Assembly: GCA_038087875.1 (NCBI GenBank)
Contig: CM075982.1
Location: forward strand, 60,512,001 to 60,576,000
Length of the DNA: 64,000 nt
Source: Malacoraja senta
Lineage: Eukaryota
Reading direction: 5' to 3'
Position numbers: made by a program. Positions within the stretch are counted from its first letter, which is position 1. Each line of letters begins with the position of its first letter. Positions 37,801-43,800 of this stretch are shown here, piece after piece.

Positions 37801-40800
37801 TTGAATATATGCATTATGGCTACACATACTAGAGCAATCCTATGTCAATTACACTATTTAAAAGGACATTATGTATTAAGTGAATCATCTTGTGAGATAT
37901 TTATCAAAACTGCACATAATATGATTGACATGATGATGCACAGTGTAATGTATGTGCTCTGCAGGGATATGGGGAAAGAACATAGGAATGGGATTAGACA
38001 GCTACAGCTGAAGAACTGGAATTGGCACAGGCACAAAGAGGCACCATCTGTGCTGCGTTTTCTGCGATGAATCTTAAGGCCTGGTTCTGCAACAAGATGG
38101 CCCTGATGTAGAGCGGAAGAAGCATAGGTACTTGGCCAAGATTGCCCGATGGTAAAGTCGTTTCGAGGTAGAAATGTAACAGCACAAGTGGGCTATTGTG
38201 CCTCTCAATCTATTCTATCATTTAGTGATATCACCGCAGTTCTATGAGCTAATTCCACAAGCTCACCTTGTCCTTATTTTCGTAAGAAAATTTACGAGGA
38301 GTATGTTAATGTCATTGGTTTTCAAAGATTTATGAATCTTGGATGTATAATTAACAGCTGATTTAACATCAATTATAAAATAAAAATGGAAAATCTGGAA
38401 CTACTCAGTAGGTCAGGCCATTATCTGTGGGGAGAGAAACAGAATTGAAGACCCTTCGTCTAAAAAAGATCTTCCATTATTTTTTGTTTTTCAATTTAGA
38501 TTTTCATTATCATCAATTATCATTTCAATTATCATCAATTATCCTAATCTTGCAACTGTTTGTATGTAGAGGTCTTTTATGTCTATGTTCCCTAAAGAAC
38601 GGGTTTTAATTGTTAGATCATGAACTTAGCCCTTGTTTTTCCAACCATTGGAAATATTTTGTTCTCTTTTATCCTCTGTTTTATATATATTTTGAAAGGT
38701 TTAATCAAATCAACCCATAACGTTCATAGTTGCAGAGAATACAATCCTCATTTTTGTAATCTTCTCTTGCTACTGAATCCTAGTTTTAGTCTCCCCCTTC
38801 CCACTTGGGCCTGTCCCAATTGGCGATTTTTTTCGGCGTCATATCAGTGTCGCCAAAAGATTTTGAACATTTCAAAATCCAGCGGTGACAAAAAAATGTT
38901 GCGACACTTGAAAAAACACCGCATGTCATACGTCATCACGCCGCGTCACCGCTGCATCATGCCGCAAATTTTTCGGTGACCTTATACGTCAGTCAATGAT
39001 GCTGGCAGTCGCAGAAAAAATCGGCAGGTGGGACAGGCCCTTAAGAGTTGCCATTATTCTGGTAAATCTAACTCTGGTGTCCTGAACTATTTGCTGAACT
39101 CTTAATGTGGTCCATGGAATCTTATCCACAGTTACAAACTTATCCCATTTCAATTTAGCCCTCTGCAAGGCCAGAAAATGAAGGTTTAGGTGTGAAAGTA
39201 CGACTAATTATATCTTAATCAACCAACAAACAGATTTTTGCCATTTTCTGTCCTGGTATCCAAAGCAAGAAATGTTGCATTAAACATAATCTGCTCCTGC
39301 TCAAGAATGGTCATGACTCTAACCCGTTGGGCATTGTCCATACTTTTTAATCTGACAAATTGTGAGGGTGAGTCCCAGAGTAGGTCACTGCATCAAAATG
39401 TCACCTGTCCTAATTACAAACCAATGCTAATGCTCTAAATCTTGCTGCTTAGGTTTATTGTTCAGGCTGATTTTGGTATCTGCATGGTGACTTTATTAGT
39501 GTTCCTTGTCGATGAAATACAAGATCGTATCCAGTGAAGTTGATTTTGATTATATTAGTGCAGTAAGGGTGGGAACCTGCAAAGAGATTATACAAGCTTC
39601 AGGTAAATAACATCCTCCAGAGGCCTTTGTTGGTTTAGTTCCTGAGGGAATCGAGGTATTCAGGTGACATAGCCCTGTGATGTGCTGAGTTCTGCATCAT
39701 TCCTGCCCAATCTGAACTTTAATTTTTCCTTTGCACTGTGTTGCCTCGCATGCTCTTCCCTGTGCTGCAGTAAAGGTGATATTGTCATTTGACACTAATA
39801 CACGTAGGGACTGGTAGCATAGAGGGAAATTGCTGGTCACCCTGCCAGAAAGTTGTAATTCACCTCATTATCTTACGTGATAACTCATTGCAAAAACCTT
39901 TCTGACTATAAATTATTTTTATTTGTGCAGACCATATGGCTGTTGCTGGCAAGATCTCCATTTGTGGGTTGTTGTTATTTGCCTTTGAGTAAGTGGTAAT
40001 GACTTGTCTTTTTGAATCGTTGCACTCCTTATAATGAAGTTAGCCCAGTAGGGTTGATAGGTAAGGATTAATCTGACCTTTTTGCAATGACAACAAAGGT
40101 ACGTAGACATATTTCCACATTGAGATTGAGAATGGGATGGAAAACTGTTCATTTTGATCTCCGATAGTTATGTGTTAGGAGACGACTCTGAAGATATCAG
40201 TAAGTTGCTGCAGCATCTTCTTGTGGGTGATGTTCTCCCCTCAATTCCCATTGACTTTATTTGTACCAGTCCTTGCTGCATGATTCCTTCACCAGTGATA
40301 CACCATGAACGCTATACTTGGTCAAACAGTACCCCGTCTATCTACAGCAGCCACCCTCATCTCACTTCCCAATGTAACTTTTTTTTAACCCAGTCCTTTG
40401 GCAGACACAAAATCATGCTCTATCATTCATTTGATTGACTCAAAGCTGTACTTGGGTCAGAATCAGAGAGTCATGAAGATATGTAACATGAAAAATGACC
40501 CTTCAGATCATTAAGTCCACATGACTATCAACTATCCATTTACAATAATCTTGCATTATTCCCATTTTTTTAATTCTCCCCAAAATATTGTTGACTCTCT
40601 CCACCCCCACCGCCCCCTAATTCTTGCATTGACTTATACACCTATTCACAGCAGCTAAATAACCTAACGACATGCATGACTTTGGGATGTGGGAAGAAAC
40701 TGGAGAATCCTGGGGAAACCCATACGGTCTGCACACAGAGAGCAACTGAAGTCAGTAGTTGTTTAAGAAAGAACTGCAGATGCTGGTAAATCGAAGGTAG

Positions 40801-43800
40801 ATACAAAGTGCTGGACCTATTCCTTCTCTCCATAGATGCTGCCTCACCCGCTGAGTTACTCCAGCATTTTGTGTCTACCTTTGAAGTCAGGAGTTAACGT
40901 GGTTCTCTGGTGCTTTTAGGAAGTGGCTCTACGAACCCTGCCTAGTGTGTTGTCCCAGAGTTCAGAGCTGAACTTTGCTAATAAAAGTAAATGGATACCA
41001 ACAATATATTCTTCATGTGTCAGGTGTCAGGTGTCATCATTACGAACAATGCCTTTCATCACTGCTTTTGAGTGAGAATATTTTGATGGCCAGTAATTAG
41101 CCAAATTGGTTTTGCTGGCTTTTGGGAGACAAGGTACATACATTTGGACATTTTGTGCAGTAAGTTGTGAAAAGTGCTCTCTCCAGTTGAGGATGATGTG
41201 GGTTCTCAGAACTGGTAAGGCACTGATATAAGGATTGATGAGGGATAGTCAAGTGACATCTCAAGGAATGCATTGATTGTTGTAGGTTATTGCAAAAGCT
41301 TCATAAAACCTTGTCACAGTATATTTTATGTATACTGTGACACATCCTTGTTATATTGCAGCCAGTAAAATATCTATTAGTATTTGTGGATGGAGGAACA
41401 GATTTGGGAGAGTGTTTAGTTTAAAGTTGTCGTGACTTTGGAATTGATGGTTACCTAGTCCTTTAGCAGTCAACAATTCACGCTATATCATTCATTTCAT
41501 TAGATTGGTCTTAATTGACTTGCAGTGTAAGTTTACAAGTATATAACAAATAAAGACATCTAATATTCCAAATAAAAATTGCTGGGTTGTGGTTTCAAAA
41601 TGGCCCCTACGGTCTTGGGTGGGGAGAGAATGCAGGGAGTGCACTTGCTATTTTGTTCTTGTTGATCTTGCTTGTTTTTCACTTTTGATAGCTAACTGGT
41701 ACATACATACAGCTGAAAGCACATATGAATTATTGTGTGACTAGATTTAGGGTTGAGAGTAAAAGTTGACAAATCACTCCAATTTTTTAATGCGACAAAG
41801 GACCCCATCTACATTGTTACATAGAAAATAGGTGCAGGAGGAGGCCATTCGGCCCTTCGAGCCAGCACCGCCATTCATTGTGATCATGGCTGATCGTCCC
41901 CAATCAATAACCCGTGCCTGCCTTCTCCCCATATCCCTTGATTCCACTAGCCCCTAGAGCTCTATCTAACTCTCTCTTAAATCCATCCAGCGACTTGGCC
42001 TCCACTGCCCTCTGTGGCAGGGAATTCCACAAATTCACAACTCTCTGGGTGAAAATGTTTTTTCTCACCTCAGTCTTAAATGGCTTCCCCTTTGTTCTAA
42101 GACTGTGGCCCCTGGTTCTGGACTCACCCAACATTGGGAACATTGTTCAATGCAACAGTACAAGAAAGTGTGTGATGGAGAGAAAGGGGAGACTAGCACT
42201 AGCTACACTAGAAAGAAAAAAACTAGCTACAAACACACTTTAGAGTGTTCATCTCAACTTGTTAACTGCATAGTACTTGTGGTCATCTTCTTGGTCAAGT
42301 GCAAGAATCTTCAGTTAAATTAGACATTGCAAAGTATCCAAAATGATATTGGTACACCTTCAGTCATGTTTTGGCATTCTTATCTGTGGTTGAAAGGATG
42401 ATCAAACAGTTGGAGGGAGTTATTAAGAGTTTTTTTAAGAAATCCATTTTAGTTTTAAATATTTTTGTTAGAACTGATAGGTTCTGCTAACATCAACTGT
42501 CCAGACAATCTGCAAAGATTAACTAAATCCAACAGTAAGTAAAGAGACGAACATATATAGAAATGAAATGACACACTTGCATAAACACCTCAGGTTTATT
42601 GCTATATATCTCTCCTGATATTAATCCAGTTGTGACATGCTGTCAAATTCAGTAACTCTTCCAGATCACTATTCTCTTAGTGGTGTCATCAGGTTGTCCA
42701 GCAGTGGACTTTTGAAAAAAAAAGCAGAAATTATAGTTTGGTGATATCCAACACTGATATCTTAATTTGCTTTGATACTATAAATATTGTTGTAATTGTT
42801 AATAGAATATTGAAAGTTTTCCACAATGTGGGGTAGATAACTCTTGGATTCTATCAAGCCGTATCTTAATCAAAGTGTGAGAAAATGATTAATTCTGTTA
42901 GTTTTCACTATCACACTGTGGAGTGTTGTATTGTAGCGGCTGAACAACCAAGCAATTAAGCAGCAATCAAAACCAAACTGCTGGAGGAACTCAGCAGGTC
43001 AGGCAGCATCTGTGGTGAGATATGGATAGTCGATGTTTCCTGTCAGGATTCTTCTTCAAATTGTTTAAGGAGGAACTGCAGATGTTGGTTAAACCAACAT
43101 AAAATGCTGGAGTAACTCAGCGGGTCAGGCAGCATCTCTGGAGAAAAGGAATAGGTTTACTCCAGCTTGCCTTCAGACGATGAAATCTGTCTAAACCCAA
43201 AATGTCGTCCGTCCAGTCCCCCCCACAGAGGGGGCATGTTGCCTGACCTACTGAGTTCCTACAGCAGTTTGTGTTTTTCTCAAAATTCTAGTATCTGTAT
43301 CTCTTCTGTCTCCAACTAAACAGCATAATGTTTCATAGAAAGGACAATTAGGCTAATTTTTTGGATAATTGGATTAAGAAAGGATTTCCTTGCTGGCGAG
43401 AAACAAACAACGTAAAAAAAAAAATTTAAGTTTGTCAAATCATAAAGGGAATCAATGAAAATTCTGTGAGGAATATTCTTTACAGTTTTAGTTTAGTTTA
43501 TTGTCATGTGTACTGAGGTACTGCAAAAAGCTTTTGTTGCGTGCTAACCAGTCAGCAGAAAGACTATACATTACTACAATCGAGCCATCCACAGTGTACA
43601 GATACATGATAACGGGAATAGTGCAAGATTATGTCCAGTAAAGTCCAGTAAAGGTAGTCCAAGGGTCTCCAGTGAGGTAGATGGTAGCTCAAGACCTTTC
43701 TCGAGTTGTTGATAGGATGGTTCAGTTGCCTGATATCAGCTGGGAAGAAACTCTCTCTGAATCTGGAGGTGTGCATTTATCACTTCTGTACCTCTTGCCT

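What the first reader, a model, noticed from the sequence alone, without database searches (positions are those of the whole stretch)
40756..43170. Element junctions cluster at the ribozyme; two break exactly at the predicted scissile bond
Seen: in the 40756 copy the forward arm begins at acctattcc (40815). In the nested copy the reverse arm stops at ...ggaataggt (43156). Both positions are the first base after GAAACGUC, the predicted cleavage site. Most other copies begin within about 6 nt of the CUGA (4910, 5573, 6075, 25518, 30932, 34490, 48850, 51140, 56211, 63158). Inference: the ribozyme or its fold defines the template 5' end or stalls RT, and so sets insertion boundaries. The sample is small and 1-3 nt microhomologies blur the junctions.
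Basis: partly seen in the sequence, partly recalled or inferred. Interest (0 to 1): 0.65.

Follow-up and report, generated by a model that had tools for sequence, protein, structure and literature searches.

The report
Penelope-type repeats starting at a hammerhead
A short mobile repeat of the Penelope-like kind begins with a small self-cutting RNA motif, so most copy ends pile up there for an ordinary reason, but two copies start exactly at the motif's cut site, which hints that cut RNA is sometimes copied back into the genome.

Summary
The window holds 18 well-alignable arms, plus about 9 decayed ones, of a repeat about 100 nt long. Some copies carry an optional 3' tail of about 35 nt, making them about 135 nt. 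The first 28 nt fit the published "minimal hammerhead" of Penelope-like elements (PLEs).

- **Main cluster:** 11 of 18 arms start 7 nt before to 4 nt after the C of CTGAAGA.
- **Cut-site junctions:** 2 of 18 arms (40815+, 43156-) start exactly at the base after GTC.
- **Others:** 5 arms start elsewhere.

The main cluster is ordinary. It is the 5' terminus of the unit, and the hammerhead cuts 28 nt further downstream, so it cannot make that end. An RT stall is not supported either.

Three features are known PLE insertion hallmarks: head-to-head inverted pairs, a tail on one arm only, and variable target-site duplications.

The two cut-site junctions come from different subfamilies. One is blunt and the other has 1 nt of ambiguity. 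Against a uniform null, P is about 0.003 for an exact match and 0.03 allowing ±1 nt. They fit occasional use of self-cleaved RNA as template, but two events cannot exclude chance, an alternative start site or a protein roadblock.

There is no support from covariation, folding energy or Rfam, and helix I has only 2 bp. This is a new member of a known kind, with a cheap genome-wide test.

The parts
40756..40814 (-). Pair D, tail-bearing arm. It covers consensus about 75 to about 135 and its inner end is at ...CCAGC.
   Evidence: The 9-nt target-site duplication TGAAGTCAG lies at 40747-40755 and 40882-40890.
40815..40881 (+). Pair D, short-form arm. It starts at A29, the base after GTC, and ends at the short-form 3' end. 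The junction has a 1-nt (A) ambiguity.
   Evidence: profile position 33; A2.
43059..43156 (-). Copy E, tail-bearing arm, running from A29 to the tail end. It is nested at the centre of an older inverted pair, and its junction is blunt.
   Evidence: The older arms at 42969-43009 and 43236-43276 are 88% complementary.
43157..43170 (+). Copy E, 10-nt opposite-strand piece (consensus 70-79) plus 4 unassigned nt, followed by a weak 5-nt duplication (CTTCA at 43054-43058 and 43171-43175).
   Evidence: alignment.
4781..5003 (.). Pair A. The minus arm is full length with a tail (to about 4910). The plus arm is full length in the short form (from about 4911). The junction is a small palindrome.
   Evidence: The duplication is 13-14 nt with one indel (about 4768-4780 and 5004-5016).
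5474..5577 (-). Single short-form copy. It starts at +1 after 4 extra nt and has an intact core.
   Evidence: 8-nt duplication GATAATCT.
6075..6204 (+). Single copy with a variant tail. Its start is between -1 and +4, because CTG is shared with the duplication.
   Evidence: 10-nt duplication AAAAACTCTG.
25517..25610 (+). Single, more diverged copy starting at -1.
29100..29155 (-). Single 5'-truncated copy, consisting of the tail region only and starting at about 81-84.
30833..30933 (-). Single short-form copy starting at -7, with an intact core.
   Evidence: 10-nt duplication ATATCGTTGA.
34447..34580 (.). Pair B. The minus arm is truncated at 50-53. The plus arm starts at -1..+3, with a 3-nt microhomology (TCT). 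Both arms are short form.
   Evidence: The duplication is 10-12 nt (34435/7-34446 and 34579/81-34590).
48848..48983 (+). Single copy with a tail, starting between -7 and -4.
   Evidence: 8-nt duplication TCTGTACA.
51056..51271 (.). Pair C. The minus arm is short form and truncated at about 10, inside helix II. The plus arm runs from -1 and carries a tail.
   Evidence: 13-nt duplication at 51043-51055 and 51272-51284.
56210..56310 (+). Single short-form copy starting at -7. The hammerhead descriptor is intact.
63157..63252 (+). Single, more diverged copy starting at -3.

Best explanation
The repeat is a short retroelement of the Penelope-like (PLE) type. Its parts are a minimal hammerhead motif (positions 1-28), a conserved body, a first 3' end at about 95, and an optional tail of about 35 nt ending at about 131-135.

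**Shown.** The sequence fits the published min-HHR features. Insertions have variable target-site duplications, head-to-head inverted partners, and a tail on one arm only.

**Inferred.**
- The RNA is read in the ribozyme-sense orientation.
- cDNA synthesis starts at one of two sites, with or without the tail.
- Synthesis usually runs to the RNA 5' end, which lies 0-7 nt before the CUGA box. That is the main junction cluster, and the ribozyme does not make it.
- When both target strands prime cDNA, the polymerase that runs off its template continues on the other cDNA. This gives inverted pairs in which one arm ends at an RNA terminus and the other ends anywhere.
- In two independent insertions that terminus is A29. 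The most likely reason is that the template had been cut by the hammerhead, probably as a dimer or with protein help. The copies made this way lack the ribozyme core.

**Confidence by part.** About 0.85 for the PLE-type architecture and the trivial nature of the main cluster. About 0.4 for self-cleavage as the cause of the two A29 junctions.
For: **Motif.** The majority sequence of 15 aligned arms reads CTGAAGA, one extra A, a 4-bp helix II closed by G-C, GAAA, C-G, then TC (A1). A descriptor with those features finds 4 family copies plus 1 AT-rich hit in the window, against 0.015 per mononucleotide shuffle (200 shuffles). [quoted passage not shown] That paper also notes single dispersed motifs and pairs on opposite strands 100-700 bp apart (PMC4209133, parts 1-2 read).

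**Architecture.**
- 7 of 18 arms carry the tail.
- In 4 of 5 young inverted pairs the tail is on exactly one arm.
- There are 5 young and 2 old head-to-head pairs.
- Duplications are 8-14 nt in 8 insertions, with one weak case of 5 nt.

This matches the published description: a 30-40-bp tail often at one end only, and an inverted 5'-truncated copy adjacent at the 5' end (PMC8557442, passages; PMC3846280, passages).

**In vitro PLE data.** An Anolis PLE cleaves and extends both target strands and starts reverse transcription at two sites whose spacing equals the tail. Its hammerhead cut site lies about 85-92 nt upstream of those sites (PMC11167929, main text). Here the distance is about 66 nt to the short end.

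**Run-off pattern.** In 7 of 7 inverted pairs one arm ends at the canonical end (5 pairs) or at A29 (2 pairs). Partner arms end at about 1-5, 10, 50-53, 55, 70 and 75.

**The two A29 events.** They differ at subfamily-diagnostic positions 47 and 59, have different partner breakpoints (75 and 70) and different duplications. P is about 0.003 exact and 0.027 at ±1 nt.
Against: - There are only two events. P(any coincidence among 8 breakpoints) is 0.27, and the site was named by a reader who had already seen the junctions.
- None of the 8 simple (non-inverted) insertions starts at 29: 7 are canonical and 1 is at 81-84.
- Helix I is only 2 bp in the unit RNA, with 63% of cells paired.
- There is no covariation. 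The score is 0.184 against 0.181 in shuffles, with 207 of 500 shuffles as high.
- Rfam hammerhead models give nothing, even at E up to 10.
- Monomer and dimer MFE folds of three intact copies pair the core with the stretch after the cut site instead of forming the hammerhead.
- For the Anolis PLE, hammerhead mutants did not change insertion in vitro, and no RNA-seq reads began or ended at the cut site (PMC11167929).
- No PLE RT/GIY-YIG ORF is in the window. The only RT found is LINE-like.
- No head-to-tail (pLTR) arrangement was seen.
Confidence: 0.55

Rival explanations
1. Coincidence. The two arms at position 29 are ordinary 5' truncations or inversion breakpoints, or later deletions inside unstable palindromic insertions, that happen to share a base.
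For: The sample is small: 8 internal breakpoints, with P(any two equal) = 0.27. One junction has a 1-nt ambiguity. No simple insertion starts at 29 (0 of 8). Nothing here shows the motif to be active.
Against: The shared base is the one position named independently by the hammerhead model (P 0.003-0.03). The events belong to different subfamilies and have different partners. In these two pairs no arm reaches the canonical end, whereas one arm does in all 5 other pairs.
Confidence: 0.33
2. Position 29 is set by something other than cleavage. One option is an alternative transcription start: the A of TCA in ...GTCACC... resembles an initiator, as I read it. The other is a protein bound to the hairpin region that blocks the reverse transcriptase.
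For: PLE pLTRs carry promoters with initiator-like TCA motifs (PMC3846280, passage; PMC6765202, passage). The Anolis PLE protein binds near the motif and assists cleavage (PMC11167929). The initiator resemblance is my own inference and was not tested.
Against: There is no evidence for a promoter or a footprint here. The sequence-based prediction is the same as for cleavage, so the window cannot separate the two.
Confidence: 0.12
3. One reading: the ribozyme or its fold sets the main 5' boundary at the CUGA box, either by cleavage or by stalling the reverse transcriptase.
For: 11 of 18 arms start within 7 nt of the box.
Against: A type I hammerhead cuts 3' of its core (established knowledge; PMC4209133), which here is 28 nt downstream. 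The enzyme has already copied helix II by the time it reaches the box. Folding is no stronger than for shuffles. Only 1 arm ends inside the hairpin (51056-51138, at about 10).
Confidence: 0.07
4. Opposite polarity. The template is the strand antisense to the ribozyme, so the constant CUGA-side end is the element's 3' end and the ribozyme reading is irrelevant.
For: A constant end is typical of a 3' end in target-primed reverse transcription. Arkhipova et al. raised antisense templates for PLEs (PMC3846280, passage).
Against: In every pair the CUGA ends are joined in the middle, while the tail or short ends abut the duplications. Extra or untemplated bases sit at the CUGA side (5474 and 25517). 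In vitro, reverse transcription starts at the tail-side sites on sense RNA (PMC11167929).
Confidence: 0.06

Closest known systems
Minimal hammerhead ribozymes (min-HHR) of metazoan Penelope-like elements (Cervera & de la Pena 2014, PMC4209133; dimer cleavage by Lunse et al. 2017, known to me only through the citation in PMC6765202)
   Same: The CUGANGA and GAAA boxes, the unpaired nucleotide before helix II, the G10.1-C11.1 pair, no helix III, and a palindromic C-G before UC. Motifs are dispersed as single copies and as opposite-strand pairs.
   Different: Helix I is 2 bp here, against the usual 4-5. A 2-bp helix I is described for Drosophila virilis. The motif sits at the very 5' edge of a unit of about 100 nt with no ORF. 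Activity is untested and there is no covariation in the window.
PLE insertion architecture: pLTRs, an inverted 5'-truncated partner, and a 30-40-bp tail (PMC8557442, PMC3846280, PMC11167929)
   Same: An optional tail of about 35 nt on one arm, head-to-head inverted partners with small palindromes at the junction, short variable duplications, and nesting into an older copy.
   Different: No direct (head-to-tail) pLTR arrangement and no RT/GIY-YIG ORF in the window. The units look like solo or non-autonomous pieces.
Ribozyme-defined 5' ends of non-LTR elements (HDV-like ribozymes of R2 and L1Tc; PMC6765202, passages)
   Same: [quoted passage not shown]
   Different: HDV-like ribozymes cut upstream of themselves and stay on the template. 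A type I hammerhead cuts downstream, so copies made from cut RNA lose the core. Here this would be a minority path at most (2 of 18 arms).
Hammerhead-bearing SINE-like elements and non-LTR retrozymes (Schistosoma Sm-alpha type; PMC7229834 from the search listing; bioRxiv 10.64898/2026.07.22.740005 from the abstract and passages)
   Same: Short non-coding elements with a hammerhead that are thought to depend on PLEs.
   Different: Those carry canonical type I hammerheads and, for retrozymes, are arranged in tandem and yield circular RNA. No tandem copies are seen here.
L1 twin priming (Ostertag & Kazazian 2001; recalled, not read here)
   Same: Inversions arise when both target strands prime cDNA.
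   Different: Here the arms usually overlap or are both complete, and one arm carries a PLE-type tail.

Membership tests
Hammerhead ribozyme, PLE min-HHR type | Core boxes CUGANGA and GAAA, with a cleavage triplet NUH | tested here: met
   Seen in the majority sequence of A1. The boxes are intact in 4 copies (4909-, 5573-, 30926-, 56217+). The other copies carry CpG-type decay.
Hammerhead ribozyme, PLE min-HHR type | [quoted passage not shown] | tested here: met
   A 4-bp helix with 88.3% of cells paired in 15 arms, and the extra A is present. The feature list comes from PMC4209133.
Hammerhead ribozyme, PLE min-HHR type | No helix III, and a palindromic 15.2-16.2 so that two motifs can pair | tested here: met
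   GAAA is followed directly by C-G-T-C. The dimer MFE does not, however, choose this pairing.
Hammerhead ribozyme, PLE min-HHR type | Helix I of about 4-5 bp | tested here: not met
   Only 2 contiguous pairs between the 7 nt before the box and the bases after the cut, with 63.3% of cells paired. A 2-bp helix I is reported for D. virilis PLEs (PMC4209133).
Hammerhead ribozyme, PLE min-HHR type | Compensatory changes across family members | tested here: inconclusive
   The covariation score is 0.184 against 0.181 in shuffles, with 207 of 500 shuffles as high. Copies decay neutrally, so the window is a weak test.
Hammerhead ribozyme, PLE min-HHR type | Match to curated hammerhead covariance models | tested here: not met
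   No hammerhead hits at the gathering score or at E up to 10. As I recall, those models include helices I and III, which this type lacks.
Hammerhead ribozyme, PLE min-HHR type | Self-cleavage after H17 | not testable with these tools
   This needs an in vitro or in vivo assay. The two A29 junctions are only indirect evidence.
Penelope-like element (insertion architecture) | Optional 30-40-bp tail at one end | tested here: met
   7 of 18 arms carry a tail of about 35 nt. It is on one arm only in 4 of 5 young pairs.
Penelope-like element (insertion architecture) | Inverted 5'-truncated copy adjacent to the 5' end | tested here: met
   5 young and 2 old head-to-head pairs.
Penelope-like element (insertion architecture) | Partial tandem (direct pLTRs) | tested here: not met
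   No head-to-tail junction among the arms found.
Penelope-like element (autonomous) | ORF with a telomerase-like RT and a GIY-YIG endonuclease | tested here: not met
   Pfam was run on 16 of the 53 ORFs of at least 90 aa and on 17 of the 68 ORFs of at least 45 aa in 51300-58500. One RVT_1 was found and no GIY-YIG. That RT is closest to LINE-1 ORF2p and R2. The host genome could not be searched.
tRNA-derived SINE | tRNA-like head | tested here: not met
   ARAGORN finds 0 tRNA-like genes in the window.
Non-LTR retrozyme | Tandem units, each with a hammerhead, so that cleavage releases unit-length RNA | tested here: not met
   No tandem units. The copies are dispersed singles or inverted pairs.

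The most novel reading that the evidence does not exclude
The two junctions at A29 are genomic fossils of in vivo hammerhead self-cleavage. A fraction of the element's RNA is cut after GUC, and the 5'-OH product, which still holds the reverse-transcription start sites, is copied into the genome by a PLE enzyme. That would make insertion junctions a readout of the activity of PLE hammerheads, whose function is still called unclear (PMC8557442, passage). Copies made this way lose the ribozyme core.
Probability: 0.35. Interest if true: 0.65.

Novelty: new member of a known kind. Interest (0 to 1): 0.42.

Why it matters
Minimal hammerheads are present in canonical Penelope-like elements, yet their role in endonuclease-bearing PLEs is described as unclear (PMC8557442, passage). 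For the one PLE reconstituted in vitro, cleavage was not needed for insertion, and no RNA ends were seen at the cut site (PMC11167929, main text).

If insertion junctions show a single-base spike at the scissile bond across a genome, that would be simple in vivo evidence that these ribozymes cut and that the cut RNA is a template. The test needs only an assembly.

If the spike is absent, the family is one more ordinary PLE-type short repeat. The four literature searches I ran listed no paper reporting such a junction analysis. Supplements were closed, and two key papers were not held.

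Tried and rejected
- **Rfam.** No hammerhead at the gathering score or at E up to 10.
- **Covariation.** Counted on 15 arms, with no signal.
- **Folding.** Single-strand folds of two whole copies are no better than shuffles. Monomer and dimer MFE folds of three intact-core copies do not give the hammerhead fold. A first version of that script, which also forced the intermolecular helix, crashed, and the forced fold was not repeated.
- **Autonomous PLE in the window.** Only a LINE-type RT was found.
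- **tRNA head.** None.
- **MITE or DNA-transposon reading.** Rejected, because the outer ends are asymmetric and the duplication length varies from 8 to 14 nt.
- **D and E as copies of one rearranged source.** Rejected, because they differ in subfamily positions, partner breakpoints and duplications.
- **Papers.** Lunse et al. 2017 and Pyatkov et al. 2004 are not held.
- **More copies.** No eukaryotic genome collection was on hand. The genome-wide histogram therefore stayed undone.
- **Host taxon.** Not determined.

Full report
**What is there.** The window (64,000 nt, no N, 39.8% GC) holds many copies of one short repeat. BLAST with four window copies, a profile search (25 hits at E up to 1) and reading of each locus with flanks give 18 well-alignable arms and about 9 decayed ones. 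The decayed arms are at 617, 8594, 22442, 22501, 31026, 38392, 42973, 43171/43189 and 59287.

I number from the C of CTGAAGA as position 1. On that scale:
- the unit starts 0-7 nt upstream of position 1;
- the predicted hammerhead cut is between C28 and A29;
- a first 3' end lies at about 93-95 (...GTCTACCTT);
- 7 of 18 arms continue into a tail of about 35 nt, ending at about 131-135.

**Checking the observation.** Both special junctions are as described. ACCTATTCC starts at 40815 (+), and GGAATAGGT ends at 43156. With 30 nt of flank included, both align to three full copies only from the base after GTC (A2). Both start at profile position 33, where full arms start at 2-4. The 43156 junction is blunt. 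At 40815 a single A could belong to either arm.

The ten other listed positions are all arm starts between -7 and +1, or up to +4 once microhomology is allowed for. The tally is 11 of 18 arms at -7..+4, 2 at 29, and 5 elsewhere (about 10, 50-53, 70, 75 and 81-84).

**What the element is.** The first 28 nt read as follows: the CUGAAGA box, one extra A, a 4-bp helix II closed by G-C, GAAA, then C-G-U-C with no helix III (A1). A descriptor with exactly these features hits 4 family copies and one AT-rich site. Mononucleotide shuffles give 0.015 hits on average (200 shuffles).

Cervera & de la Pena list the same traits for the minimal hammerheads of metazoan Penelope-like elements:
- an unpaired base between positions 9 and 10.1;
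- the G10.1-C11.1 pair;
- a palindromic 15.2-16.2;
- likely action as dimers;
- low activity in vitro.

They also note that most motifs are dispersed singles, and that some are pairs on opposite strands (PMC4209133, parts 1-2 read).

The insertion anatomy is also PLE-like:
- **Duplications.** They are 8-14 nt in eight insertions.
- **Inverted pairs.** There are five young and two old head-to-head pairs.
- **Tail.** It sits on exactly one arm in 4 of 5 young pairs.

[quoted passage not shown] Arkhipova et al. describe palindromes at the inverted junction (PMC3846280, passages).

Frangieh et al. show that an Anolis PLE cuts and extends both target strands. It starts reverse transcription at two internal sites whose spacing is the tail, and these sites lie some 85-92 nt downstream of its hammerhead cut site (PMC11167929, main text).

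No tRNA-like head is present. No PLE ORF is in the window. The one RT ORF (53918-55321, minus strand) is LINE-like. No head-to-tail arrangement was seen. I therefore file the repeat as a PLE-type solo or non-autonomous unit, not as an autonomous PLE.

**The main cluster.** It is the 5' terminus of the unit. A type I hammerhead cuts 3' of its core, so it cannot create an end 28 nt upstream of its own scissile bond. To reach that end the reverse transcriptase has already copied helix II. Whole-copy folds are no more stable than shuffles (z +0.85 and -0.88).

The scatter from -7 to +4, extra bases (4 nt at 5474 and 8 nt at 25517) and 1-3-nt microhomologies are what 5' junctions of target-primed insertions look like. 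This part of the finding is real but ordinary. What sets the RNA 5' end is not shown. A start site in the unit is my inference.

**The two junctions at A29.** In all 7 inverted pairs one arm ends at a terminus: 5 at the canonical end and 2 at A29. The partner arm ends anywhere (about 1-5, 10, 50-53, 55, 70 or 75). This fits a model, which is inferred, in which both target strands prime cDNA and the enzyme that runs off its RNA continues on the other cDNA. In that model A29 behaves as a second RNA 5' end.

Pair D (40756-40881) needs two cDNAs, because only one arm has the tail. Copy E (43059-43170) joins A29 bluntly to a 10-nt opposite-strand piece.

The two events are independent:
- they differ at subfamily-diagnostic positions 47 and 59;
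- their partner breakpoints differ (75 and 70);
- they have different duplications.

Under a uniform null for 8 internal breakpoints, P(at least 2 at the named base) is 0.003, or 0.027 with ±1 nt tolerance. P(any coincidence) is 0.27.

**Evidence against the cleavage reading.**
- There are two events only.
- None of the 8 simple insertions starts at 29.
- Helix I has only 2 bp (63% of cells paired).
- There is no covariation (207 of 500 shuffles score as high).
- Rfam gives no hit.
- Predicted folds prefer pairing the core with the stretch after the cut.
- In the Anolis system, hammerhead mutants did not change insertion, and no RNA-seq reads ended at the site (PMC11167929).

Rivals that the window cannot exclude are chance or later deletion in a palindrome, an alternative start at the A of ...TCA..., and a protein roadblock.

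**Comparison and novelty.** The motif and the insertion anatomy are known kinds, so this is a new member. The mechanism resembles the ribozyme-defined 5' ends of R2 and L1Tc (PMC6765202, passages). The polarity differs: the hammerhead is left behind, so copies made from cut RNA lack it.

My four literature searches listed no report of PLE junctions mapped to the scissile bond. Lunse et al. 2017 and Pyatkov et al. 2004 were not held. Supplements, which may hold fish min-HHR consensus families, were closed.

**Limits.** The decisive histogram could therefore not be made. The host taxon was not determined. My impression that the repeat resembles those of cartilaginous fishes is recalled, not tested.

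Noticed in passing
window 29484-29561 (-): A sub-threshold but full-length match to the CPEB3 (HDV-like) ribozyme model RF00622: 30.9 bits against a gathering score of 35, with E = 2.9e-4 for the whole window. The conserved P2/P3 stretches are kept, and the P1 helix is changed on both strands yet still pairs. Rfam titles the family 'mammalian', and a review says it is highly conserved among mammals (PMC8256844, passage). I did not check whether the window lies in a CPEB3 intron.
   Followed up: partly
window 53918-55321 (-): A 467-aa open frame with a reverse-transcriptase domain (RVT_1, E = 4e-33). It is closest to LINE-1 ORF2p and R2 among solved structures. This is a LINE fragment, not the PLE partner of the repeat.
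   Followed up: partly
window 48848-48980 (+) and other tail-bearing copies: The end of the tail (...CCTTCTT...) is complementary to the start of the unit (...AAGAAGG... in the hammerhead core). The MFE fold of a long-form copy is a panhandle that joins the 5' and 3' ends. This could be chance (7 nt) or could bear on template choice.
   Followed up: no
window 30882-30933 (-), 4865-4916 (-), 5529-5580 (-): The bases just after the cut site (ACCYATTCC...) are complementary to the core plus the 5' strand of helix II. Predicted folds prefer this alternative hairpin to the hammerhead. It may be a competing conformation.
   Followed up: partly
window 22442-22585: An old, decayed head-to-head pair of a related subfamily. 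Its box reads TGATGA, and about 24 nt of unassigned filler sit between the arms.
   Followed up: no
window 42969-43058 and 43171-43280: The young copy E sits at the centre of an older inverted pair of the same superfamily, whose arms are 88% complementary. This fits the reported tendency of PLEs to insert into or next to earlier copies (PMC6765202, passage).
   Followed up: partly
window about 41810-42150 (+): A block that reads like a different interspersed repeat lies between copies D and E, inside the finding's coordinates. It has no similarity to the hammerhead-bearing unit. It was not examined further.
   Followed up: no
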